A DNA stretch of 64,000 nt from a virus. Taxonomy: Duplodnaviria; Heunggongvirae; Uroviricota; Caudoviricetes. The notes under the pieces are model-generated. The model was not told where the DNA came from, ran no database searches, and saw only the letters and a program-made list of their open reading frames with translations. Of this stretch, positions 7,846 to 59,385 are shown piece after piece (positions within the stretch are counted from its first letter, which is position 1; every line of letters begins with the position of its first letter). Location of the stretch: the IMG/VR virus record IMGVR_UViG_2541047850_000005, positions 1-64,000 of that record. One strand, written 5' to 3'. Made by a program: the position numbers and the translations under genes.

Positions 7846-8439
7846 CTCTTCATCCTCACTTCGTTTCTATAACGTCTAAATATGCTGTTTACTTGTTGGT
7901 GTTATTATCGCAATAAGACAAAGGCGAAAAAGGATTTTATGTCGGGAAAGCCAGGCTGGGCAGTGAATATCCGGGAACGACACGAGAGCCAGTATTTACG
8001 ATATTCTGCTCTACGCACGCCGCGGGGCTGGTGGGCAGAATAATCCTCTCCCCGAAAACCTACTGAAATCGATTGTGACCCGCTGGCTGTCTGGCACAAT
8101 TACGCTGTATCTGGCATTCAGAGGGAATCCAGCGGTAAGCAAGTCAGCCTGCACGTGAGCGTCTCTCTTCTTCCCGCACATTACAGGTGGGTAGCTGCAA
8201 CTCTCTCTCGCTATACCGGTACGCCGCCGTTCCTGAACCGGCATCGAGCCTTTTCCCGAAATCCACACAGGCAACTCGACCGTTTCCCTGAAAATCCCCA
8301 GCCGTTTCTGTAGCGTATGCAACCTTTTCTCTGTATGGACCGAAGGCTGACCGTAGGGGTGTTACGGGGGATGATGGTAAGATGTTGAATAAATACGAAA
8401 AAGGAGGCGACACCCCTCCTTCCCTCCCCACTTATACAT

Positions 8440-9300
8440 ACCTTGCTTCTTCGCTATACATGTTGTGTTTTCTTCGTGTTTTATCTGTCTCAACCTCTCT
8501 ATAGGCGTTAATGCTTACTCCTTCCAGAACGTTCTATACGGCGACTATTTCTGTTGGTGAATTGGGTGTGTTGTTTTCTCTGTCGATGTATGTGGTTTCG
8601 TTCGTTTTGCGGTGGTTCTTCTATGGGGTGTTCTCGTCGTTTTGGTGATTGTTCTTCTCCGTGTATGGAGTAATGGCAGGTGGGCGATTCCTTTCGTTAT
8701 TGTGTTTGAGTTGTTTGTCTGGAGTGTGTGAAGGGCTTTTGTAGTTATTCGTGTATTGGGTAATGGCGTTTCCCGTGATTGTTATGTTTCGTGTCTTTTG
8801 GGATTGAGAGAAACCTTGCGGTTACAGGCTTCGTTGGGGTTTCAGCGGTTCAGGTGTTTCTTCGCTGTTTGGGTAATGGCGTGTCGTGGGTATCGCGCGT
8901 ATGAATGTTTTCGGATTGCCTGTGAAAGTTAGGTTGGTTATCCGGTAGCCTGGGAAGAAGAGGTGGGGTCTTTTCGGTAGCCTGCCATAAAGAGGTTGGT
9001 TGTTTTGGGTAATGGCATATGTGTTATTTGGTTGTTTTGTTATGCCTGAAAATAAGTTGTTTATATGGTTGTGTAACGCAACGGGAGCGATTTTGAGCGT
9101 GTGTTTTTGTTGGTAGTGTGTTGAGTCGTCTGTGGTGAAAATTGGACGCTGTGGAGCTGTCTGCTGCGTAGGTTTACGGGTATAAGAAGTGATGTGTGAA
9201 AACGTCAATTTTTTAGACCAAATCGGGAGAAAGCGTTGATGTTTCGTTGATCTGTTATTTAGTTGTTTTCTTATTGGTATAAACAACTGTAACCTATTGA
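8440..9300. repeat. strongly G+T-skewed non-coding tract with degenerate ~100-135 bp repeats (recurring GGGTAATGGC core)
   Basis: plus strand nearly devoid of C/A runs; GGGTAATGGC-like core recurs at ~8664, ~8762, ~8872, ~9008; CGGTAGCCTG repeated twice. Confidence 0.5.
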
Positions 9301-9714: not shown

Positions 9715-9823
9715 TTCAACCACTCCAAAACAAGTTGTTTTCTTATGTGGCTTATTATCTCTAACAACAAAAGGCAGAAAACAAATTGTTTTAGGTACTG
9801 TGTAAATCAGAAGGGATTGTGTC

Positions 9824-9854
9824 TATATGAAAATGCCCGGCGTGTTGCCGGGCA
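9824..9854 (-). terminator. rho-independent terminator downstream of metG
   Basis: hairpin ATGCCCGGC-N5-GCCGGGCAT followed by TTTT on the minus strand. Confidence 0.6.
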
Positions 9855-9875
9855 TTGCGAAGAGAGGTTGCTTAA

Positions 9876-11909
9876 TTACTTAACCTGGTGACCAGGTTTA
9901 GCACCAGCATCCGGGCTTAACAGGAAGATATCTTTCCCACCAGGACCAGCAGCCATCACCATGCCTTCTGAGATACCGAAACGCATTTTACGCGGAGCCA
10001 GGTTAGCCACCATAATGGTGTGACGACCAATCAGTGCCTGTGGGTCTGGATAAGCAGAACGAATGCCGGAGAAGACATTACGCTTTTCCCCACCGAGATC
10101 CAGTGTCAGACGCAGCAGTTTGTCAGAGCCTTCAACAAACTCCGCGTTTTCAATCAGCGCCACACGCAGGTCAACTTTGGCGAAGTCGTCAAAGGTGATG
10201 GTTTCCTGAATCGGGTCGTCAGCCAGTGGGCCAGTTACCGGTGCGGCTGTGGCTTTCACTTCTTCTTTGGATGCTTCCACCAGTGCTTCCACCTGTTTCA
10301 TATCGATGCGGTTATACAGCGCCTTGAACGGATTCACTTTGTGGCCCAGCAGCGGTTGCTGGATACCATCCCAGGTCAGTTCTGTATTGAGGAATGCTTC
10401 TGCGCGCTCGGTCAGTTTCGGCAGTACCGGTTTCAGGTAAGTCATCAGCACGCGGAACAGGTTAATGCCCATAGAGCAAATCGCCTGCAGATCGGCATCG
10501 CGACCTTCCTGCTTCGCCACCACCCACGGAGCCTGTTCATCGACATAGCGGTTAGCCAGGTCAGCCAGTGCCATGATTTCACGGATAGCTTTACCAAATT
10601 CGCGGCTTTCCCATGCTTCGCCAATCACTTCAGCGGCATCAGTAAAGGTTTTGTACAGTTGCGGGTCAGCCAGTTCGCTTGCCAGCACGCCGTCAAAACG
10701 CTTGTTGATAAAGCCTGCATTACGGGAGGCCAGGTTAACCACTTTGTTCACGATATCGGCATTCACTCGCTGAACGAAATCTTCCAGGTTGAGATCGATA
10801 TCATCAATGCGCGAAGAGAGTTTCGCAGTGTAGTAGTAACGCAGGCTGTCGGCGTCAAAATGATTCAGCCAGGTGCTGGCTTTAATGAACGTGCCGCGAG
10901 ACTTGGACATCTTCGCACCGTTCACCGTCACATAGCCATGAACAAACAGGTTGGTCGGCTTGCGGAAGTTGCTGCCTTCCAGCATGGCAGGCCAGAACAG
11001 GCTGTGGAAGTAAACGATATCTTTACCGATGAAGTGGTACAGCTCGGCGGTGGAGTCTTTCTTCCAGTATTCATCGAAGCTGGAGGTGTCGCCGCGTTTG
11101 TCGCACAGATTCTTGAAGGAACCCATGTAGCCAATCGGCGCGTCCAGCCAGACGTAGAAATATTTGCCCGGCGCGTTCGGAATTTCAAAACCGAAATAAG
11201 GGGCGTCGCGGGAGATATCCCACTGTTGCAGGCCAGATTCAAACCACTCCTGCATTTTATTTGCCACCTGCTCCTGCAACGCACCGCTGCGGGTCCATGC
11301 CTGCAGCATTTCGCTGAAAGAAGGCAGATCAAAGAAGAAGTGTTCGGAATCACGCATTACCGGCGTAGCACCAGAAACTACCGATTTCGGCTCGATCAGT
11401 TCAGTCGGGCTGTAAGTCGCGCCGCAGACTTCACAGTTATCGCCGTATTGATCTGGCGCTTTACATTTAGGGCAGGTGCCTTTTACAAAACGGTCCGGCA
11501 GGAACATGCCTTTTTCCGGGTCGTATAACTGAGAGATGGTGCGGTTTTTAATAAAACCGTTCTCTTTCAGGCGAGTATAAATAAGCTCGGACAACTGACG
11601 GTTCTCTTCGCTGTGCGTCGAGTGATAGTTGTCATAGCTGATGTTAAAGCCTGCAAAATCAGTCTGGTGTTCCTGACTCATTTCGCCAATCATCTGTTCC
11701 GGTGTGATACCAAGCTGCTGTGCTTTCAGCATGATCGGTGTGCCGTGGGCATCGTCGGCACAGATGAAATTAACCTCGTGGCCGCGCATTCGCTGGTAAC
11801 GAACCCAGACATCAGCCTGGATGTGCTCCAGCATATGGCCGAGGTGGATTGAGCCGTTAGCGTACGGCAGCGCGCACGTCACCAGAATTTTCTTCGCGAC
11901 TTGGGTCAT
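9876..11909 (-). CDS. metG: methionine--tRNA ligase
   Basis: 677-aa product starting [26 protein letters not shown] (HIGH motif), KMSKS motif, C-terminal tRNA-binding domain; track ORF extends upstream of the true ATG. Confidence 0.95.
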
Positions 11910-12066
11910 AGTAGGCATTACTTCTTTGTAGTGAAAAGGGGCTTGATAGTAACAAAATGGCCTTATGTCTGCCATGTGATAACAGCATTTCTCATAAATG
12001 ATTAAATGCCGTAGCTGGAGTACACTACAAGGCGACAATTGCGCAAATTAAAATAAAGGAGACGGG

Positions 12067-13167
12067 ATGAGCGAGTCCAAATCGCCGGATGCCCTGAGAG
12101 CAATGGTAGCCGGTACGCTGGCTAATTTTCAGCACCCAACCCTGAAACACAACCTGACTACGCTTAAAGCGTTACACCATGTTGCGTTGATGGATGACAC
12201 ACTGCATGTCGAACTAATCATGCCTTTCGTGTGGAATAAGCCTTTTGAAGACCTGAAAGAGCAATGTAGTGGTGATCTGCTCCGTATCACTGGCGCAAAG
12301 GCTATCGACTGGAAGCTGTCGTACAACATTGCCACGCTTAAGCGCGTCAAAAACCAACCAGGCATTAATGGCGTTAAGAACATTATCGCCGTCAGCTCAG
12401 GCAAGGGCGGCGTTGGTAAATCCTCCACGGCGGTAAACCTGGCACTGGCGTTGGCTGCTGAAGGTGCGAAAGTTGGTATTTTGGATGCCGATATCTACGG
12501 GCCATCAATTCCAACCATGCTTGGCGCGGAAAACCAACGTCCAACCTCACCGGACGGTACTCACATGGCACCGATTATGTCTCATGGACTGGCAACCAAT
12601 TCAATTGGTTATCTGGTAACTGACGACAATGCGATGGTGTGGCGTGGTCCGATGGCGAGCAAGGCGTTAATGCAGATGTTGCAGGAAACTCTATGGCCTG
12701 ATCTGGACTATCTCGTTCTCGATATGCCGCCGGGTACTGGTGATATTCAGCTGACGCTGGCGCAGAACATTCCTGTAACTGGTGCTGTTGTGGTAACTAC
12801 GCCGCAAGATATCGCGCTGATCGATGCGAAGAAAGGCATTGTGATGTTCGAAAAAGTCGAAGTGCCGGTACTGGGTATCGTCGAAAACATGAGTGTGCAT
12901 ATTTGCAGTAACTGCGGTCATCACGAGCCAATTTTTGGCACCGGTGGCGCACAGAAACTGGCCGAGAAATACAACACGCAGTTGTTAGGCCAAATGCCAC
13001 TTCATATCTCTCTTCGTGAAGATCTGGATAACGGAACACCAACCGTTATTAGTCGTCCAGATAGCGAATTTACGGCTATTTATCGTGACCTTGCAGATCG
13101 CGTTGCTGCCCAAATGTATTGGCAAGGTGAAGTAATACCTGGCGAAATCGCATTCCGCGCAGTGTGA
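12067..13167 (+). CDS. apbC: Fe-S cluster carrier ATPase ApbC/Mrp
   Basis: P-loop SSGKGGVGKSSTAVNLA, CxxC motif (HICSNCGH), divergent from metG as in enterobacteria. Confidence 0.9.
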   Translation: MSESKSPDALRAMVAGTLANFQHPTLKHNLTTLKALHHVALMDDTLHVELIMPFVWNKPFEDLKEQCSGDLLRITGAKAIDWKLSYNIATLKRVKNQPGINGVKNIIAVSSGKGGVGKSSTAVNLALALAAEGAKVGILDADIYGPSIPTMLGAENQRPTSPDGTHMAPIMSHGLATNSIGYLVTDDNAMVWRGPMASKALMQMLQETLWPDLDYLVLDMPPGTGDIQLTLAQNIPVTGAVVVTTPQDIALIDAKKGIVMFEKVEVPVLGIVENMSVHICSNCGHHEPIFGTGGAQKLAEKYNTQLLGQMPLHISLREDLDNGTPTVISRPDSEFTAIYRDLADRVAAQMYWQGEVIPGEIAFRAV

Positions 13168-13194
13168 TAAAAAGGTGGTGCAATGCACCACCTA
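13168..13194. terminator. hairpin terminator between convergent apbC and umuD-like gene
   Basis: AGGTGGTGCA-a-TGCACCACCT stem with A/T runs on both sides (bidirectional candidate). Confidence 0.5.
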
Positions 13195-13204
13195 AACAGT
13201 TCTC

Positions 13205-42356: not shown

Positions 42357-42395
42357 CTGTAAGCCGCGCCACGACTGGTCTGAAGCCATGTTCAT

Positions 42396-42497
42396 GTATG
42401 CTGTCAGCGGTAATTGATAGTCTGTCAGCGGTTCACCGTATGCTGCCAACTGTTTTTGGTATTCTGTCAGCGGCAAATCAAGTATGCTGTCAGCGGT
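42396..42497. repeat. iteron cluster upstream of repA (about 4 copies of TATGCTGTCAGCGGT-like 15-mer)
   Basis: direct repeats at ~42398, 42421, 42461, 42483. Confidence 0.8.
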
Positions 42498-42517
42498 TGA
42501 ATGACAAAGGTGTCCAC

Positions 42518-43612
42518 ATGTCCACAAAAAATAAAAAAGGTAAAAATAACAAAGAAGTAGAAGATAACATCGACAACTTTGAAGAAGGTTCCCTTGAATT
42601 GTACACAGGGGAACTTGTCCCTAATAGCAACAATACAGTCCAACCAATTGCGTTGATGCGACTGGGGTTGTTCGTCCCCACGCTTAAGGGAACAAAATAC
42701 AGTAAACGTAACAAGCCAAATGAGATCGATGCTTCAAAGGAGCTTGTCCAGCTCGAAGTAGCCCGTTCTGAAGGCTATTCCGATATCAAGATAACCGGTC
42801 CTCGTCTCGACATGGATCATGATTTCAAAACGTGGGTGGGCGTTGTGCGTTCGCTGGCAGAATACGGCGAACCTAATGGTCGTGTCGAGTTAAGCATCAC
42901 GAAATTTGCGAAGTTTTGTGGCTATCCATCGTCACAGATCCGCAAAACACTCCGCGACCGGCTTACAAACAGTCTTTTGAAGATCATGCGTACAACTCTG
43001 TCTTTCCAGAGAACGTATGAAGAAAAGAACGTCGACGGCTCTAACAAGATCTCGCTTCTGATGGTGCACCTCATCAATAGCGTGGACTACAACGAGCAGA
43101 AAGATACGGTGGTGTTCTATGCAGAACCGAAGCTGGCCGAACTATATCGCTTTGACCATAAGGTTCTTTTGCAGTTAAAGGTTATCAATAAGCTACCACG
43201 CAAAGAAACAGCACAGGCTCTGTACACCTTCATCGAAAGTCTTCCAACCAAGCCTGCGCCGGTATCGCTTGCTCGATTGCGTGCGCGACTCAATTTGAGT
43301 AGCAGGAATGTCAGCTCGCAGAATCAGACTATACGTAACGGCTTAAAAGCTCTCCAAGATTTGGGCTATCTCGAATACAGCGAGATTAAGCGTGGGCGGT
43401 CGATCTATATCCAGATTCACAGCCGCAATCCAAAACTCAAAGTCGCACCGCCAAAACCTGAAGACATCGAACCCAAAAAACCAGATGAGAAAGCTGGGGA
43501 AATTGATGCCAAACAGAACATTATCAACAAGATAACCGAACTTTCGCAGAATTTGACGCCTGAAAATATCAAGATGATTGAGATCCTTTCCAATAGTCTC
43601 AAACTGCTTTGA
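42518..43612 (+). CDS. repA: iteron-type plasmid replication initiator (RepA/RepE-like)
   Basis: 364-aa basic protein flanked on both sides by iteron arrays; start set at ATG MSTKNKKGK (track ORF runs through the upstream iterons). Confidence 0.7.
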   Translation: MSTKNKKGKNNKEVEDNIDNFEEGSLELYTGELVPNSNNTVQPIALMRLGLFVPTLKGTKYSKRNKPNEIDASKELVQLEVARSEGYSDIKITGPRLDMDHDFKTWVGVVRSLAEYGEPNGRVELSITKFAKFCGYPSSQIRKTLRDRLTNSLLKIMRTTLSFQRTYEEKNVDGSNKISLLMVHLINSVDYNEQKDTVVFYAEPKLAELYRFDHKVLLQLKVINKLPRKETAQALYTFIESLPTKPAPVSLARLRARLNLSSRNVSSQNQTIRNGLKALQDLGYLEYSEIKRGRSIYIQIHSRNPKLKVAPPKPEDIEPKKPDEKAGEIDAKQNIINKITELSQNLTPENIKMIEILSNSLKLL

Positions 43613-46838: not shown

Positions 46839-46930
46839 GTGTTTTCCTATGTGGTTGTTATGCGAAAATAATAAGTAAGTGCTTATGTATTTTCAAGAGA
46901 TAAAAAAGGCGTCCTGTGGACGCCTTGTGT

Positions 46931-49270
46931 TTACTCTTCTACTGACTCGGTGGGGTTGTCTTTTGCTCTTCGGTCGTCGATTGCCTGCAAAGCCGCAATG
47001 ATTTCAGCCAGTGGCTTCTCCCGATACATCTCGACGATCTGCGATTTGGTGTATTTCTTGTCACCAATTTCAACTCGCCCGCTGGCGTTCTTTGGCAGGT
47101 ATCCTTCTTCCAGCATGTACTCGACGAGCGATTCGATAACGTCGAGGCCACGAGTAGGATCGAAGTAGAATTTCCAGGTGCATTTGCCATACGGTGGTGC
47201 AACTTTGTTTTTGATGCATTCTGCGCCTACGTCCTGGCCGATCTTCTCTTTACCATCCTTCATCACCGATGCACCAAGACGGATACGTACAGAAGCGTAG
47301 AACTTCGGTGAATCTCCACCTGGCGACGTAGTAGGGTCGCCAAACATTACACCGATTTTTGTGCGAACCTGATTCAAGAAGATGATGCAGGCGTTGTATT
47401 TGCGTGCCCACAAAGCCAGAGTAGGGAAGTTCGCACTTGTCGCACGAGCCAGTGCCGTATTGTCGTTCATGTTTAGCTGATCTTTGTCTTTGGCAGTGCC
47501 TTCAGCCATCTTTTCGAACTTCTCGGCTTTGGAGTTCGGAACCATAGACGCAAGTGAGTCAGCCACGATACAGATAGGTGCTGATTCAGGAATAAGCTCT
47601 TCATCACGTACCAATTTAAGAATTGTGCCGATCAACTCTACAGAGTCTTCGAAGGTATCAGGCTGCTTGTATACCCACTGACCGTCATCCTCATCTGCGT
47701 TCAGGCCATTGGCTACAGCCAGGCCAACGTCAAAACTGTTTTCATGATCGAGGAATACCGCCAGACCATCTTGTTTTTGAGCGGAGATCATCGCTGCTGT
47801 TGCAAGGAATGTGTTGTGGCTGATAATCCCGTTAGACCAGAAAGAGTGTGTTTCCGGCATCGCTACGTCGAACGTTGGTGCTTCACCTTCCTCAATAGCC
47901 ACGACTTCGTCGTAGAATAAGTTAGAGCCAATTACCGCTGCCAGTTGTGCAAACAGATGCTCGTTAAAACGATTCTTTCTGCCAATGAAGGAGACATAGA
48001 TTTCTCGCAGTTTGTCTATTCCGACACGATCGCCGCGGCCAATAACGTGGTCTACCAGAGCGTAGTCTTCACGGGTGGTCTTGGTGAGCGACTCGTAGAG
48101 TGATTTCACTAAGCCGCTGATGTGCGGAACATAGCCTGAGTAAGTGCGGTCAAAACCAATGTCCCGTTTGGTTGCCACTGATAAACGTGCCGGAGATTCG
48201 AAACCAATCGTTGACAGAAAAAGGTCGTAATTAGAGCCACTGAATGACAGCCGGTAATATGTATTTTCATAACCCGCGACGTGTTTTTCAGAGATAGTTG
48301 ACGTAATCCCCAGATTCAGGAGCATGAGGCGAATTTGCTGTAGCAGCAGCCCACTCGCGCTCACAACCTCAATGCAGCGACCACCATTGACGTGGCATTC
48401 CAGCTCAAAGTAGCCGCGAAGGAATGCAATTTGAGCCTCGCTATTGGCGCGACGCACACTCAACGGAACCTGCTTGCCAGCAGCTTTCTCATACTCCAGA
48501 CCATATTCTTTAAAAAGCAGCGAACGCACCTCTTTGCTAAACAGCACATGGTCTTCCGAGCCGTTATGTTTTCTCGTAACTGGCATCTTGTCTGATACCA
48601 GCGAAATGAGGCGGTAGTACTCATCCTTGATGAATGGATCTGTGTTAGAAAAATGCACAGAATTTTCAGAGGCCACGTATCCGTCAGCAATTAAATAGCC
48701 CATCAGTTTTGCGATATTGGCATCCAAGTGCTGATCGCCGAATTGATGTGTGCCAACCATTGAAGGAATCGTGTCGCCTACACTGATTTTTTCAGCATAC
48801 CGCCAGACGATATTGCCTAAGTCGTCAACCACACGAATTGGGTGACGGAACGTAGCCTCGATGTAACCCCCTGATGCCAGCTTAATGCGCTTGAATTTGC
48901 GACGGTTGTTCCATGTCAGGTGTGAGGTTTTCTCTATCACGCCATTTTCATTGATGAGTCCAACGTTATGCTCTACATCGCGAGTAGTGCATGTTGCTTT
49001 GTGCCCCTCAATCTCAAACAGTTCTTTCACTGTTACCATTCCACGCTCCGTCAGCAGCATGGTGTCTGCGGTAACACATTTCCCCGCACTTGGAGGACCG
49101 AATACTTCGACGATACGACCACATGGGAAACCGCCATCGTAACGACCGGAAATCGCTTTGTTTAACGGAGGAAAGCCTGTGTCAATCCAATGAGTTACTT
49201 TCTGAATTTCGTCGTTGCTACCGATTTTCTTTTTCAGAGCAAGTGCCAGTGCGGATTTTCCTTTTGCCAT
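46931..49270 (-). CDS. recA: RecA-family recombinase interrupted by a 422-aa intein
   Basis: exteins align by eye with E. coli RecA (RIVEVFGPPSAGK|T.., ..IIFLNQVRTKIGVMFGDPTTSPGGDSPKFYASVRIRL..); extein total ~357 aa. Confidence 0.85.
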   Translation of the reverse strand: MAKGKSALALALKKKIGSNDEIQKVTHWIDTGFPPLNKAISGRYDGGFPCGRIVEVFGPPSAGKCVTADTMLLTERGMVTVKELFEIEGHKATCTTRDVEHNVGLINENGVIEKTSHLTWNNRRKFKRIKLASGGYIEATFRHPIRVVDDLGNIVWRYAEKISVGDTIPSMVGTHQFGDQHLDANIAKLMGYLIADGYVASENSVHFSNTDPFIKDEYYRLISLVSDKMPVTRKHNGSEDHVLFSKEVRSLLFKEYGLEYEKAAGKQVPLSVRRANSEAQIAFLRGYFELECHVNGGRCIEVVSASGLLLQQIRLMLLNLGITSTISEKHVAGYENTYYRLSFSGSNYDLFLSTIGFESPARLSVATKRDIGFDRTYSGYVPHISGLVKSLYESLTKTTREDYALVDHVIGRGDRVGIDKLREIYVSFIGRKNRFNEHLFAQLAAVIGSNLFYDEVVAIEEGEAPTFDVAMPETHSFWSNGIISHNTFLATAAMISAQKQDGLAVFLDHENSFDVGLAVANGLNADEDDGQWVYKQPDTFEDSVELIGTILKLVRDEELIPESAPICIVADSLASMVPNSKAEKFEKMAEGTAKDKDQLNMNDNTALARATSANFPTLALWARKYNACIIFLNQVRTKIGVMFGDPTTSPGGDSPKFYASVRIRLGASVMKDGKEKIGQDVGAECIKNKVAPPYGKCTWKFYFDPTRGLDVIESLVEYMLEEGYLPKNASGRVEIGDKKYTKSQIVEMYREKPLAEIIAALQAIDDRRAKDNPTESVEE
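47813..49078 (-). other. intein with LAGLIDADG homing-endonuclease domain inserted in the RecA P-loop (between K64 and T+1)
   Basis: starts with Cys (CVTADTML), ends ..IISHN followed by Thr; LAGLIDADG-like motifs LMGYLIADGYV and AFLRGYFELECH. Confidence 0.75.
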
Positions 49271-55945: not shown

Positions 55946-57181
55946 TCAACCAAATATTTTTTGAACAACTTCACGAGCCGCTTGTGCAGAAGCTGAAGGG
56001 AGTTTGTTAATGAAAGAACGCTCAATACCTGTCACAAAATCGCCTCGCATCATTCCAATCTTGGCCGACAACAAAAGCTCACGAGGCCCAATCGGTTGGC
56101 TGATATTGTGTTCTTCGTATCCATCGCGAACGATACCGGCAAACTTAACCATCTTTTCAGCGTATTCATCCACGATGCCGGCATTTATCAACATGTTGAT
56201 CTCTGCCTCTTTGCTCATGTATTTCACATTCGAAACGATGCCAAAACGCGAAAAGTTAGCGGCGTTCTGGATGTTTGTACCCTGGTACAAGCCGGTTTCA
56301 TCACCAGATCCGTTCGTGTTGCCAGTGCCAATGAAAGCAAACCGTTCATGCGGAGTAATGCGACGCCATTCTGGAGTCGCCTCTTTGATGACCAACGCTT
56401 CACCTTCCAGCACTGGCTGATACACGCCAAGAATCTGTGGAAACGCAAAGTCGTATTCATCCGCGAGGTAAACCCAGCCATGCTTCATTGCGAGCGCAAG
56501 CAAACCAGGCTCGAAATACGTAGAGCCATCACGCGCCAGAATTTGTCCCGTAACATGAGCCTCTTCCATTGATGCTGTATGTTGGGCACGGATTAACGGA
56601 CGATTGAGCAAAGCACATAGTTGTGTAGGCAATGAAGATTTGCCTGTTCCTGCATGACCCCACAAATAGCCTGGTATGCCAAGTTCAAGCATCATGAAAA
56701 TGTCTTTGATCAGTTCGAAGTCGCCATATACGTATCCCTTCTTCACTTCTGGAACGAACTCTGGAAACGGCGTATTGACGTTGACGCTAACCATGAGCGG
56801 CGTCCCACGTTTTGTTCCGAGTTCTTTCACCGTTACATTTAGCATTTCGTGAGCTGCGACCAGATCTGTCTTGTACTCAACTGTGCCTGTATAGCCTGGG
56901 CTATTGGTCACGCCAGATGATTTGGCCATTTCGCTTTTTTGCTCGGCACGTTTAGCTTGAATTGCATCAAGTGCCTTTTTCGATAGCGTTGGCTCATCTG
57001 GAAACTGCGTTGTGTACATTTTCAGTACGGTGTCAGGATCGGCATCTTTTACTGACTCAGGAATGCCCTCGCAATTACCATTGGCTACATGGGACTTAAA
57101 ATAGTGAAATGATTTTCCGCACCACTTGCAAACAAGGTAATCAGAAGGATTTTTTTCATTTTGCAGTGCAGTAGTAGTCAT
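55946..57181 (-). CDS. CobS-like MoxR-family AAA+ ATPase with N-terminal Cys/His zinc-ribbon-like segment
   Basis: Walker A ..GHAGTGKSS.., Walker B ..VYLADEYD..; N-terminal CKWCGK..H..C. Confidence 0.7.
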   Translation of the reverse strand: MTTTALQNEKNPSDYLVCKWCGKSFHYFKSHVANGNCEGIPESVKDADPDTVLKMYTTQFPDEPTLSKKALDAIQAKRAEQKSEMAKSSGVTNSPGYTGTVEYKTDLVAAHEMLNVTVKELGTKRGTPLMVSVNVNTPFPEFVPEVKKGYVYGDFELIKDIFMMLELGIPGYLWGHAGTGKSSLPTQLCALLNRPLIRAQHTASMEEAHVTGQILARDGSTYFEPGLLALAMKHGWVYLADEYDFAFPQILGVYQPVLEGEALVIKEATPEWRRITPHERFAFIGTGNTNGSGDETGLYQGTNIQNAANFSRFGIVSNVKYMSKEAEINMLINAGIVDEYAEKMVKFAGIVRDGYEEHNISQPIGPRELLLSAKIGMMRGDFVTGIERSFINKLPSASAQAAREVVQKIFG

Positions 57182-57276
57182 GCGTTTTTCCTTTGTTTTC
57201 TAATGAGCTTTCAACTTCTTATATAAATATACCATCAAATATCGTAAGTGATTACTTATCATTAAGGCTATTCTAA

Positions 57277-59385
57277 TCACTTCAAAATGATACGAGATAG
57301 TTCAGTAACTACAGATGAACCAAGACTATCAACGCTCGTTACCAGGGCATGGTTTGCGTAAAATCTCTCCGGTGCGTCAGTCATGATGCCAATTGCCATC
57401 AAATCAATGTCAGTCTGCGTTTCAATTTGCTTCGCAACCGAACGCAAATGAGCGTCAAAACCTCTCCCAACAGCCAACGGCTCGCCATCATTCAGAACAA
57501 GCATGATCTTCCTGTCCTCCATGCGACCGGAAAATAACGATGCAAGGCTGGCTATGCTTTCACCATCCACGTTATTAAGAAGTGGGAATGTGTAGCCTAC
57601 GCACCCCATACGTGAGCGAACTTCGCGAGAATTTACCTTTTCATTCCAATTTTTGATGATAGGTAGCATTAAAGATTCAAAGCGAGAGAACTCATACTTG
57701 ACAGCCTTAAGTTCTCCTGCCGCCATATGACTACCAAATGTAGTGAAGCCGGTGATAATGTTGGGAACATTTATTCGATCAAGGGCATCGGCGATGGTAT
57801 ATGCACTTGCAAGAGCCAATTGTATCGTTATACCACTCATTGAACCTGATAAATCAATCACTTGTTGAACACAGGCGTTAACGGCTTTAGATTCTTCTTT
57901 TTTACGAAACACGCGATCATCATTCATTGCTAATCTGTAGATACTAGAACCATGAATGCGCCCCCGACGCTGGCCCGGTATAAACTGAACTCTGTTTCTG
58001 CTTGCTATTGCTCGCTCCAGGTCTTTTGCCAGCGTCGACGAAACACCTGACGAAAGATGCTTTTCAATATATTTGTCGAAGAGCTGGTTGCCTTCAGGAA
58101 CGATGCGATAGCGGCTGATTGGATATCCTCCTAAATCAATATCGGAGAATGTTTTAATAAGCCGTTTGATATGGGCTTCTGCCTGATCAATCGAGCCGAT
58201 GAAGTCGTATGAGCGATTGTATGGCCTGTATTCACTTTTCGAGCTTTCTGTTAACTCGCTTTTAATCGTTTCGGATAGAGCATCTTCTGTCATGCCTCCG
58301 ACTTCATCTTCTATGCTATCCAGCTCCTCTAAAGCCTCTTCCAGACTCATTTTTGACGTAGTTGGAATATCTGAAGAGCCGTCTTCTGTCGTTTTTCTTT
58401 TTTCGTGGTCAGCGGTTAATGATTCTGACGCCGCGTTATCAGAAGCATCAGAATCTGATACCTCTTTATCATTTTCTGTATCATCGAATATTGTTTCTGA
58501 TGATTCAGAATTATCTGAATCATCACTGTCGTTATTATCATGTTTGTGCTTACTATGTGATTCTGATTTGATAGATTTGTGATTATCTAACAATGAGGGT
58601 GTCTCATGATCTTCGTTGTCTTCATTGTTTTCTCCAGAGGCATCCGTCTGGTCAGCGTCTGAAGGATCGGAAGTTTTTCCCGGAGCTGACTCCTTACCTT
58701 TGCTTTCACTTTCAGTGTCTTTGAGGATCTTAGCTATGGTCGCAGCCACCTTTACACAATCCTCGGTGCAAGACATGTTACGCACGGCCACATCGATACC
58801 ATGTTCTTTTAATAATGAAATTGGTTTCTCAATGACAGGCCAATATTCATCCATGAAATCTACGAACGGTGCTTGGCCATCCCAGGCTCTTACAACCGGA
58901 CAGAGAAAGAAGTTTAGAAAAAGCGCGCGCTGATCTTTGCCACAATAAGCAATAGCCTCTGAAGCCTTTGGTTTAAAGACTTTTTCGATTATAAGGCGCT
59001 GAGTTGCCATCAGATTACGTCTTGTTCCGTTAAAGACCTGACCCATTTTTCGCTCGATGAACACGTCTTCTAAGGCATTCCATAGCGACCAGGAAGGAAC
59101 GCGTCCTTTTTCTTTCATTTTGTTGGACACACGAATATCGGTAAACAAAATGTGAGCAACCTCATGATCGAGAAATCCGCGCACAGCATTCATCAATGCC
59201 GGTGTTGCGTTATCCGGGATTGATGGGATGTTTACGAGAATTGGCTCTCCATCATCATTATAGCGTACATAAGCGTCGTCCCCTCGTTCTGCAACAGGGA
59301 TGTTTTTACCTGAAAGGAGAGCGACTACTCGTTTTACACTGTCACGGAAGTCCTGAACCTCTTTGATGGAACGTTTTTTAGACAT
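57277..59385 (-). CDS. CobT-like protein with C-terminal von Willebrand factor A (vWA) domain and acidic low-complexity central region
   Basis: MIDAS-like motif ..VIDLSGSMSG.., D/E/S-rich linker, 702 aa; adjacent to the MoxR-like ATPase. Confidence 0.7.
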   Translation of the reverse strand: MSKKRSIKEVQDFRDSVKRVVALLSGKNIPVAERGDDAYVRYNDDGEPILVNIPSIPDNATPALMNAVRGFLDHEVAHILFTDIRVSNKMKEKGRVPSWSLWNALEDVFIERKMGQVFNGTRRNLMATQRLIIEKVFKPKASEAIAYCGKDQRALFLNFFLCPVVRAWDGQAPFVDFMDEYWPVIEKPISLLKEHGIDVAVRNMSCTEDCVKVAATIAKILKDTESESKGKESAPGKTSDPSDADQTDASGENNEDNEDHETPSLLDNHKSIKSESHSKHKHDNNDSDDSDNSESSETIFDDTENDKEVSDSDASDNAASESLTADHEKRKTTEDGSSDIPTTSKMSLEEALEELDSIEDEVGGMTEDALSETIKSELTESSKSEYRPYNRSYDFIGSIDQAEAHIKRLIKTFSDIDLGGYPISRYRIVPEGNQLFDKYIEKHLSSGVSSTLAKDLERAIASRNRVQFIPGQRRGRIHGSSIYRLAMNDDRVFRKKEESKAVNACVQQVIDLSGSMSGITIQLALASAYTIADALDRINVPNIITGFTTFGSHMAAGELKAVKYEFSRFESLMLPIIKNWNEKVNSREVRSRMGCVGYTFPLLNNVDGESIASLASLFSGRMEDRKIMLVLNDGEPLAVGRGFDAHLRSVAKQIETQTDIDLMAIGIMTDAPERFYANHALVTSVDSLGSSVVTELSRIILK

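What the first reader, a model, noticed from the sequence alone, without database searches (positions are those of the whole stretch)
46931..49270. RecA homolog split by a 422-aa LAGLIDADG intein inserted in the Walker A P-loop
The extein sequence aligns with RecA across the whole core, but after GPPSAGK the ORF continues with a Cys-initiated insert (CVTADTML...) that ends ...SHN immediately before Thr, i.e. canonical intein boundaries (Cys1, penultimate His, terminal Asn, +1 Thr). The insert carries two LAGLIDADG-type motifs, so a homing endonuclease is embedded. Inteins are uncommon in enterobacterial elements, and an insertion between K and T of the P-loop makes RecA activity strictly dependent on splicing.
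Basis: seen in the sequence. Interest (0 to 1): 0.55.

Follow-up and report, generated by a model that had tools for sequence, protein, structure and literature searches.

The report
Known intein in phage-plasmid RecA P-loop
The gene really is a RecA-type recombinase interrupted in its ATP-binding loop by a self-splicing, mobile protein element (an intein carrying a homing endonuclease), but this same intein was catalogued in 2015 and is already labelled in public databases, so it is a correct but not a new finding.

Summary
Observation confirmed in full. The ORF at 46931..49270 (- strand, 779 aa) is a RecA-family recombinase. A 422-aa insert (aa 65-486; window 47813..49078) sits exactly between Lys and Thr of the Walker A motif GPPSAGK|T.

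The insert has every class-1 intein hallmark: Cys1, block B TxxH, block F Asp and His, terminal His-Asn, and +1 Thr. It also has two LAGLIDADG motifs with their acidic residues. Its AlphaFold model matches solved endonuclease-containing inteins (TliVMA intein, E 4e-24).

An intein-less allele in a sister element encodes a protein 100% identical to the predicted spliced product.

The window is an SSU5-like phage-plasmid of Enterobacteriaceae, so this recombinase is the element's own, not the host RecA.

The intein is 98% identical in DNA across E. coli, Klebsiella, Enterobacter and Citrobacter elements whose exteins are only 80-84% identical. It also carries a short fixed flank with it. Both point to recent homing.

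It is already known. Topilina et al. 2015 (NAR) list it as RecA intein "c2 (65-486)" in E. coli, Enterobacter and Salmonella. NCBI names this exact protein "intein-containing recombinase RecA". Splicing and cleavage remain untested in the literature I could search.

The parts
46931..49270 (-). Precursor CDS, 779 aa: RecA-family recombinase interrupted by an intein
   Evidence: ORF. Pfam RecA, LAGLIDADG_3 and Intein_splicing. phrog_9666 matches full length; phrog_97 is UvsX-like recombinase.
49079..49270 (-). N-extein, aa 1-64, ending in the Walker A residues GPPSAGK
   Evidence: Aligns to E. coli RecA ...GPESSGK.
47813..49078 (-). Intein, 422 aa (precursor aa 65-486), 1266 nt
   Evidence: Absent as one exact block from the intein-less allele L001. 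AF2 model has pLDDT 85 and pTM 0.87. Foldseek top hit is the TliVMA intein 7qss, E 4e-24, TM 0.73.
48749..49078 (-). N-terminal splicing region (intein aa 1-110) with block A Cys1 and block B Thr76-x-x-His79 (precursor aa 65, 140, 143)
   Evidence: TIGR01445 intein_Nterm matches aa 65-147. C1, T76 and H79 are invariant in an alignment of 8 related inteins. Residue positions.
47924..48748 (-). LAGLIDADG homing-endonuclease domain and adjoining helical region (intein aa 111-385)
   Evidence: Pfam LAGLIDADG_3 at aa 279-356. The PDB profile alignment to 7qss covers both motifs. Foldseek matches to I-DmoI, PI-PfuI and PI-PkoII. dN/dS is 0.13 against a 93%-identical variant.
48680..48706 (-). LAGLIDADG motif 1, LMGYLIADG (precursor aa 189-197), acidic residue Asp196
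   Evidence: Aligned to LGYLIADG of 7qss.
48395..48424 (-). LAGLIDADG motif 2, FLRGYFELEC (precursor aa 283-292), acidic residue Glu291
   Evidence: Aligned to FINAYIVCDG of 7qss.
47813..47923 (-). C-terminal splicing region (intein aa 386-422): block F ...TFDVAMPETHSF (Asp404, His411) and block G NGIISHN (His421, Asn422)
   Evidence: Matches DnaB, CDC21 and PI-MtuI mini-intein C-termini.
46931..47812 (-). C-extein, aa 487-779, starting with the +1 nucleophile Thr487 (the Walker A Thr) and holding the rest of the RecA core (Walker B, L1/L2)
   Evidence: Aligns to E. coli, M. tuberculosis and other RecA structures over aa 487-730, E 1e-22 to 1e-27.
49079..49087 (-). 5' junction flank GCG GGG AAA, shared by all intein-plus alleles examined. 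Intein-less alleles read GCA GGG AAA (E. coli type) or GCT GGT/GGC AAA (Klebsiella type).
47810..47812 (-). 3' junction codon ACA (Thr+1), shared by all intein-plus alleles. Intein-less alleles read ACG or ACC.
46906..46926 (-). Terminator-like hairpin (9-bp stem, T-rich tail) 5 nt after the stop codon. It closes the run of gp32-like SSB, 5'-3' exonuclease, a small ORF and recA.

Best explanation
This is a canonical class-1 intein with a nested double-motif LAGLIDADG homing endonuclease. It is inserted in frame between Lys64 and Thr of the Walker A P-loop (GPPSAGK|T) of the RecA-type recombinase of an SSU5-like phage-plasmid.

Proposed mechanism:
1. The 86.5-kDa precursor is translated. Its ATP site is split, so it should be inactive.
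2. Cys1 performs the N-S acyl shift, assisted by block B Thr76/His79.
3. The N-extein is transferred to the side chain of Thr+1, which is the Walker A threonine.
4. Asn422 cyclises, assisted by His421 and block F Asp404/His411, and releases the 47.5-kDa intein.
5. An O-N shift restores GPPSAGKT in a 39-kDa recombinase.
6. The free intein (or the precursor) then acts as a site-specific endonuclease on intein-less recA alleles of related phage-plasmids in the same cell. Repair from the intein-plus copy converts them (homing).

Shown here: anatomy, catalytic residues, fold, exact excision boundaries, and population signatures of transfer. Inferred: splicing, DNA cleavage, and inactivity of the precursor.
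For: The intein-less allele in Escherichia phage CMS-2020a is 100% identical in protein to the predicted spliced product.

HMM support: Pfam Intein_splicing, LAGLIDADG_3 and RecA; TIGR01445 intein_Nterm.

A profile of 8 related inteins matches the TliVMA intein nearly end to end (E 6e-21). It also matches Mxe GyrA, DnaB, Pho RadA, PI-PfuI, PI-PkoII and PI-MtuI.

The AF2 model has pLDDT 85.4 and pTM 0.87. The Foldseek top hits are all endonuclease-containing inteins (7qss E 4e-24, 1dq3, 2cw7, 7qst, PI-SceI). I-DmoI follows for the nuclease domain and the GyrA intein for the splicing domain.

C1, T76, H79 and D404 are invariant in the alignment of related inteins, and the terminal H-N is present in every relative that reaches the C-terminus.

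Evidence for mobility:
- The intein is 97.9-98.1% identical in DNA between the window and Klebsiella, Enterobacter and Citrobacter alleles, whose exteins are 80-84% identical. dS is about 0.05 for the intein and above 1.2 for the exteins.
- All intein-plus alleles share GCGGGGAAA|ACA at the junction in two different extein backgrounds. Their otherwise near-identical intein-less neighbours do not.
- Occupancy is patchy: 248 plasmid records with the intein out of roughly 740-765 with the gene. In complete E. coli genomes it is 120 with the intein out of 249 with the gene.

Evidence for purifying selection on the intein: dN/dS is 0.086 overall and 0.13 in the endonuclease region.
Against: No experiment shows splicing or DNA cleavage, and I found no paper reporting either for this intein.

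The second LAGLIDADG motif ends in Cys rather than Gly.

Some relatives have lost motif 1 (P0011, P0016), so endonuclease decay does occur in this family.

Topilina et al. report that a Pho-RadA-like precursor geometry clashes sterically in their model of the E. coli RecA precursor. How the precursor folds is therefore unknown.

The homing signal is population-genetic. General recombination between co-resident phage-plasmids could also move the segment.
Confidence: 0.88

Rival explanations
1. The intein is splicing-competent but is now an immobile passenger. The endonuclease is inactive, and the present distribution reflects vertical descent plus ordinary homologous recombination between phage-plasmids.
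For: Relatives with degenerate endonuclease domains exist (P0011, P0016, and the shorter inteins P0017 and P0018). The intein itself is mosaic, which shows that general recombination acts within it. Truncated copies exist (L007, L008, L009).
Against: Both catalytic acidic residues are present. dN/dS is 0.13 in the endonuclease region. The transferred segment ends within about 10 nt of the intein on both sides in a background whose exteins are about 18% divergent. That pattern fits break-initiated conversion at the site better than random crossovers.
Confidence: 0.2
2. The intein has been domesticated as a conditional-splicing switch. The phage-plasmid recombinase would be kept as an inactive precursor and released by a signal such as ssDNA, redox state or temperature, as shown for the Pyrococcus horikoshii RadA intein at the homologous site.
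For: The insertion point is the same as RadA c1. Cys1 and other cysteines could sense redox state. The gene sits in a replication/recombination module with a gp32-like SSB and a 5'-3' exonuclease. Roughly half of the E. coli elements keep the intein.
Against: Nothing in the sequence tests this. About half of otherwise near-identical elements do without the intein, which argues against a needed regulatory role. Recent horizontal spread is what a selfish element does.
Confidence: 0.12
3. The insert does not splice. The gene is a disrupted, non-functional recA, or only a vehicle for a free-standing endonuclease, as the RefSeq product name 'LAGLIDADG family homing endonuclease' would suggest.
For: Many RefSeq records name the whole ORF as a homing endonuclease. 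Splicing has not been tested.
Against: The reading frame is open through both junctions in more than 230 independent records. All splicing residues are intact and invariant among relatives. The splicing regions show dN/dS of 0.03-0.08. The exteins of intein-plus alleles are identical in protein to functional-looking intein-less alleles.
Confidence: 0.04

Closest known systems
RecA intein 'c2 (65-486)' of E. coli, Enterobacter and Salmonella, catalogued by Topilina et al. 2015, Nucleic Acids Res 43:6631 (PMC4513877)
   Same: Same host protein family, same taxa and exactly the same residue coordinates (65-486). [quoted passage not shown] NCBI names this window's exact protein 'intein-containing recombinase RecA [Escherichia coli]'.
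   Different: Nothing detectable: this is the same element. In the text I could search, the paper treats it as 'E. coli RecA' and does not mention a plasmid or phage location for it. Here it is always on SSU5-like phage-plasmids and never on the chromosome. I did not compare their UniProt entries residue by residue.
Pyrococcus horikoshii RadA intein (insertion point c1; PDB 4e2u, 2lqm)
   Same: Homologous insertion point at the end of the Walker A loop of a RecA/RadA recombinase, with Thr as the +1 nucleophile. It is a class-1 intein.
   Different: Pho RadA carries a 172-aa mini-intein with no endonuclease, from a hyperthermophile. Its sequence similarity to the window's intein family is limited to the block B region (E 4e-11 with the profile). 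Topilina et al. infer independent invasions. Conditional splicing is shown for Pho RadA and not for this intein.
Mycobacterium tuberculosis RecA intein PI-MtuI (site a, 252-691) and M. leprae RecA intein (site b, 206-570)
   Same: Inteins in bacterial RecA. PI-MtuI is also a LAGLIDADG-type endonuclease intein.
   Different: They use different insertion sites (the monomer-monomer interface, not the P-loop). They sit in the chromosomal housekeeping RecA. The NCBIfam model for that type (NF007072) scores 98 bits against a cut-off of 1024, and profile similarity to PI-MtuI is only weak (E about 3e-3).
Thermococcus litoralis VMA intein (PDB 7qss) and other archaeal endonuclease-containing inteins (PI-PfuI 1dq3, PI-PkoII 2cw7, PI-SceI 1vde)
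   Same: Closest solved structures. The architecture is the same: a HINT splicing domain interrupted by a two-motif LAGLIDADG nuclease plus an extra helical region.
   Different: About 21% identity or less. They have different host proteins, although VMA is also a P-loop ATPase.
Uncharacterised P-loop inteins in other RecA-family proteins and in RuvB, from metagenomes and MAGs (P0004-P0018)
   Same: 30-45% identical inteins at the identical GK|C...HN|T position. They include a canonical RecA of a MAG and a RecA-like gene in a 102-kb phage-like contig.
   Different: Their exteins differ. Several have lost the first LAGLIDADG motif or are shorter inteins (241 aa and 171 aa).

Membership tests
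Class-1 intein (HINT superfamily) | Block A: Cys or Ser as first residue | tested here: met
   Cys65 of the precursor is intein residue 1. It is invariant in 8 relatives.
Class-1 intein (HINT superfamily) | Block B: TxxH motif | tested here: met
   Thr76-Phe-Arg-His79 (ATFRHP). T76 and H79 are invariant.
Class-1 intein (HINT superfamily) | Blocks F and G: conserved Asp and His in F, penultimate His and terminal Asn in G, and a Cys/Ser/Thr +1 residue | tested here: met
   TFDVAMPETHSF (Asp404, His411) and NGIISHN (His421, Asn422), followed by Thr487.
Class-1 intein (HINT superfamily) | HINT fold of the splicing domain | tested here: met
   AF2 model with pLDDT 85. Foldseek matches to intein structures at E 4e-24 to 1e-16, and to the Mxe GyrA mini-intein at rmsd 1.9-2.0 Å over about 110 columns.
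Class-1 intein (HINT superfamily) | In-frame insertion at a conserved site of a host protein whose intein-less homologues are colinear across the junction | tested here: met
   The intein-less alleles L001 and L010-L014 lack exactly the 1266 nt. The L001 product equals the predicted spliced product.
Class-1 intein (HINT superfamily) | Autocatalytic protein splicing | not testable with these tools
   Needs expression and SDS-PAGE or mass spectrometry. No report was found in the searchable literature.
LAGLIDADG homing endonuclease (monomeric, two-motif) | Two LAGLIDADG helices, each ending in a catalytic Asp or Glu | tested here: met
   LMGYLIADG (Asp196) and FLRGYFELEC (Glu291). Both align to the motifs of 7qss. 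Pfam LAGLIDADG_3 scores 65.6 bits against a cut-off of 22.5.
LAGLIDADG homing endonuclease (monomeric, two-motif) | Site-specific cleavage of the empty allele, and homing | tested here: inconclusive
   Cleavage is not testable here. The population signatures fit homing: 98% intein identity against 80-84% extein identity, a shared junction flank in two backgrounds, and patchy occupancy. They do not prove present activity.
RecA family recombinase | Pfam PF00154 above the gathering score; Walker A restored by splicing; conserved L2 region | tested here: met
   125.7 bits against a cut-off of 27. The spliced protein reads GPPSAGKT. FLNQVRTKIGVMFGDPTTSPGG aligns to [22 protein letters not shown] of E. 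coli RecA.
Bacterial housekeeping RecA (NCBIfam TIGR02012 equivalog) | Score at or above the curated equivalog cut-off | tested here: not met
   The spliced extein scores 153.7 bits against a cut-off of 325.3. It matches phrog_97 'UvsX-like recombinase' at 1.4e-83. It is found on plasmids only. It is a phage-plasmid RecA paralogue, not the host RecA.
Mycobacterial-type intein-containing RecA (NCBIfam NF007072) | Score at or above the curated cut-off | tested here: not met
   98-100 bits against a cut-off of 1024. The insertion site also differs.
RecA intein allele c2 of Topilina et al. 2015 | Intein at residues 65-486 of a RecA-family protein of E. coli, Enterobacter or Salmonella, within the P-loop | tested here: met
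   The coordinates are identical and the taxa are the same. Their accessions were not compared residue by residue.

The most novel reading that the evidence does not exclude
The intein is a currently active gene drive circulating among SSU5-family phage-plasmids of different enterobacterial genera. It would cut and convert the recombinase gene of intein-less relatives that enter the same cell. Optionally, the element may have co-opted it so that its own recombinase is released from an inactive precursor only under particular conditions. Neither the phage-plasmid setting nor the inter-genus spread is discussed in the literature I could search.
Probability: 0.3. Interest if true: 0.45.

Novelty: already known. 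Interest (0 to 1): 0.2.

Why it matters
As a discovery it adds little. The element was listed in 2015 and is annotated in RefSeq.

What this analysis adds is context:
- The so-called 'E. coli RecA intein' belongs to a widespread family of roughly 110-kb phage-plasmids. About 2% of complete E. coli genomes carry the intein.
- It shows clean signatures of recent horizontal movement between genera.
- Matched intein-plus and intein-less natural alleles are available.

Together these make it a convenient mesophilic, genetically tractable system for studying P-loop intein splicing and homing in E. coli itself. No one appears to have tested this experimentally.

Tried and rejected
- Assembly or annotation artefact: rejected. 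The same 2340-nt ORF occurs in more than 230 independent plasmid and phage records.
- Intron or insertion sequence: rejected. The insert is in frame and free of stop codons, it has protein-level intein blocks, and no Rfam family (including group I/II introns) or tRNA was found in the window.
- Bacterial intein-like (BIL) or generic Hint domain: rejected. The terminal His-Asn, the +1 Thr and the conserved host-site insertion are all canonical intein features.
- Membership of the mycobacterial RecA intein types a or b: rejected on insertion site and on the NF007072 score.
- Host chromosomal RecA: rejected. There are 0 chromosomal places in 5426 E. coli genomes.
- Literature searches: SSU5 + intein, phage-plasmid + intein + RecA, SSU5 + homing, and intein-containing RecA + Klebsiella + plasmid found nothing relevant. 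Later intein reviews I checked do not mention this intein.
- Not done: I did not model the full precursor or the spliced recombinase.
Full report
**1. Observation**

The window has a 779-aa ORF at 46931..49270 on the - strand. GPPSAGK ends at residue 64. A Cys follows at residue 65, and the insert ends ...NGIISHN at residue 486, immediately before Thr487.

The insert is therefore 422 aa (47.5 kDa; window 47813..49078). The two exteins together are 357 aa (39.0 kDa), and the precursor is 86.5 kDa.

Pfam reports RecA (3e-36, in two pieces either side of the insert), LAGLIDADG_3 (4.8e-18, aa 279-356) and Intein_splicing (3e-11, aa 73-486). All three exceed their curated cut-offs.

**2. What the element is: the window**

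At this gene the window is 100% identical to Escherichia phage PhiR41_1. It is closely related to phage Cyrano, phage CMS-2020a, Klebsiella phage vB_KpnS_p4727 and, more distantly, Salmonella phage SSU5. More than 730 PLSDB plasmids of Klebsiella, Escherichia, Enterobacter, Yersinia, Salmonella and Citrobacter carry the gene. Almost all are non-mobilizable, and those examined are about 110 kb. The window is therefore part of an SSU5-like phage-plasmid.

The recombinase gene ends a run of co-oriented genes: a gp32-like ssDNA-binding protein, a 5'-3' exonuclease, a 90-aa ORF and recA. A terminator-like hairpin follows. A DNA polymerase III alpha subunit lies just upstream. A ribonucleotide reductase and SbcCD-like genes lie on the other side of the gene, further along the window.

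**3. What the element is: the extein**

The extein aligns to solved RecA structures over aa 487-730 (E 1e-22 to 1e-27) and over the P-loop segment before the insert. It is not the housekeeping RecA:
- The spliced sequence scores 153.7 bits on the NCBIfam recA equivalog model, whose cut-off is 325.3.
- It matches the PHROG 'UvsX-like recombinase' family at 1.4e-83.
- In 5426 complete E. coli genomes the gene occurs in 249, always on plasmids.

**4. What the element is: the intein**

Exact boundaries. Escherichia phage CMS-2020a carries an allele lacking precisely the 1266 nt. Its 357-aa product is 100% identical to the predicted spliced protein.

Catalytic residues:
- Cys1.
- Block B Thr76-x-x-His79.
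- Block F Asp404 and His411.
- Block G His421-Asn422.
- +1 Thr.

These are present, and the key ones are invariant in an alignment with seven related inteins.

Profile search. A profile of that alignment matches the T. litoralis VMA intein almost end to end (6e-21). It also matches many mini-inteins, including Mxe GyrA, DnaB, Pho RadA, CDC21 and PI-MtuI.

Fold. An AlphaFold2 model (pLDDT 85.4, pTM 0.87) retrieves only endonuclease-containing inteins at the top of a PDB search: 7qss (E 4e-24, TM 0.73), then PI-PfuI, PI-PkoII, PhoVMA and PI-SceI. I-DmoI follows for the nuclease domain and the GyrA intein for the splicing domain.

Endonuclease. Two LAGLIDADG helices are present, LMGYLIADG and FLRGYFELEC, each with its acidic residue (Asp196, Glu291).

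It is clearly not met.

**5. How it most likely works**

The insert separates the Walker A lysine from the Walker A threonine by 422 residues. From established knowledge of P-loop NTPases, the precursor should not bind or hydrolyse ATP productively. This is an inference.

The standard class-1 pathway would apply:
1. An N-S shift at Cys1.
2. Trans-esterification to Thr+1.
3. Asn422 cyclisation.
4. An O-N shift.

This would restore GPPSAGKT. Notably, the +1 nucleophile is itself the catalytic Walker A threonine.

The released intein is predicted to cleave the uninterrupted site in intein-less alleles and to spread by repair from the intein-plus copy.

**6. Evidence for mobility**

This evidence is new in this analysis but incremental.

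(i) Intein versus extein divergence. The intein DNA is 97.9-98.1% identical between the window and the Klebsiella, Enterobacter and Citrobacter alleles. The flanking extein DNA is only 80-84% identical. Synonymous divergence is about 0.05 in the intein and above 1.2 in the exteins.

(ii) A fixed junction flank. In both the E. coli-type and the Klebsiella-type backgrounds, intein-plus alleles carry GCG GGG AAA | ACA at the junction. Their otherwise near-identical intein-less neighbours carry GCA GGG AAA | ACG (E. coli type) or GCT GGT/GGC AAA | ACC (Klebsiella type). All of these changes are synonymous. Divergence between backgrounds resumes 9-15 nt from the junction on either side. The intein therefore travels with a very short co-converted flank. 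The seven differences between the window and its closest intein-less allele all lie within 103 nt upstream and 3 nt downstream of the junction.

(iii) Patchy occupancy by genus, from the number of plasmid records with the intein against the number with the gene:

| Genus | With intein | With gene |
|---|---|---|
| Escherichia | 123 | about 229 |
| Klebsiella | 71 | about 269 |
| Enterobacter | 41 | 91 |
| Yersinia | 0 | 63 |
| Salmonella | 1 | about 42 |

In complete E. coli genomes the intein is in 120 of the 249 that carry the gene.

(iv) Purifying selection. Against a 93%-identical variant from E. albertii, dN/dS is 0.086 overall, 0.03 in the N-terminal splicing region and 0.13 in the endonuclease region.

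**7. Comparison with what is known**

Topilina et al. 2015 (PMC4513877) mined RadA/RecA inteins. Their table lists 'c2 (65-486)' in eight E. coli strains, Enterobacter cloacae, Enterobacter sp. and Salmonella enterica. [quoted passage not shown] They place it at precisely the same P-loop insertion point as archaeal RadA inteins (c1, e.g. Pho RadA) and infer independent invasions. The coordinates are identical to those found here.

NCBI names this window's exact protein 'intein-containing recombinase RecA [Escherichia coli]'. Its 90% cluster has 1496 members. Some RefSeq plasmid records use the same name, while most say 'LAGLIDADG family homing endonuclease'. PHROGs holds a full-length family for it.

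It is distinct from the mycobacterial RecA inteins, which occupy sites a and b.

Related inteins (30-45% identity) occupy the same GK|C...HN|T site in other RecA-family proteins. These include a canonical RecA of a MAG and a phage-like 102-kb contig. A 171-aa relative sits in a RuvB P-loop.

I found no paper testing splicing or cleavage of this intein, and none noting its phage-plasmid location. The searchable library is incomplete, however.

**8. Verdict**

The residual interest is that a natural, apparently mobile P-loop intein lives in E. coli phage-plasmids, with matched empty alleles available, and seems experimentally untouched.

Noticed in passing
window 9876-12038 (-) and 12067-13167 (+): The phage-plasmid carries a full-length methionyl-tRNA synthetase and the divergently oriented ApbC/Mrp iron-sulfur carrier gene. 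They are about 90% identical in DNA to the E. coli chromosomal metG-apbC locus and 97-98% identical to copies at 223 plasmid places and in phages PhiR41_1, Cyrano and CMS-2020a. This looks like a host-derived second metG kept by this lineage.
   Followed up: partly
window 9800-13200 versus 46931-49270: The window is 100% identical to Escherichia phage PhiR41_1 at recA but only 98.1% identical at metG-apbC. It is therefore a mosaic relative, not that genome.
   Followed up: no
window 47813-49078 (intein DNA): The intein itself is mosaic. Against an E. coli allele (L015) the differences lie almost entirely in intein nt 1-500. Against the Klebsiella allele (L004) they lie almost entirely in nt 800-1200. 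This implies recombination between intein variants.
   Followed up: partly
L007 (E. albertii p3RM15115), L008 (pCPWW7-IncF), L009 (pRHB11-C04_3): These are decayed copies. L007 has a 93%-identical intein whose C-extein loses homology after about aa 590 and has no annotated CDS. L008 retains 46% of the intein and L009 retains 19%, both in rearranged plasmids. They may represent the degeneration phase of a homing cycle, or plain rearrangement.
   Followed up: partly
window 42392-42497: A 42-nt repeat occurs 2.5 times (70% matches) at the very start of a Rep3-type replication initiator ORF (42398-43612, +). It looks like iterons of the plasmid origin.
   Followed up: no
P0018 (metagenomic RuvB, 542 aa): A 171-aa mini-intein related to this one (33% identity to the window's intein in the alignment, CVTADT...NHN|TT) sits in the Walker A loop of a RuvB. 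This suggests the intein family has moved between different P-loop ATPases.
   Followed up: no
window 8001-9000 and 8943-9011: A strongly T-rich-over-A stretch (AT skew -0.31) with a 32-nt repeat occurring 2.2 times. Unexplained.
   Followed up: no
window 55946-59385 (-): An AAA_5 ATPase gene next to a CobT/VWA gene pair (annotated elsewhere as 'porphyrin biosynthesis protein') lies next to the DNA polymerase III alpha gene. Its function in the element is unknown.
   Followed up: no
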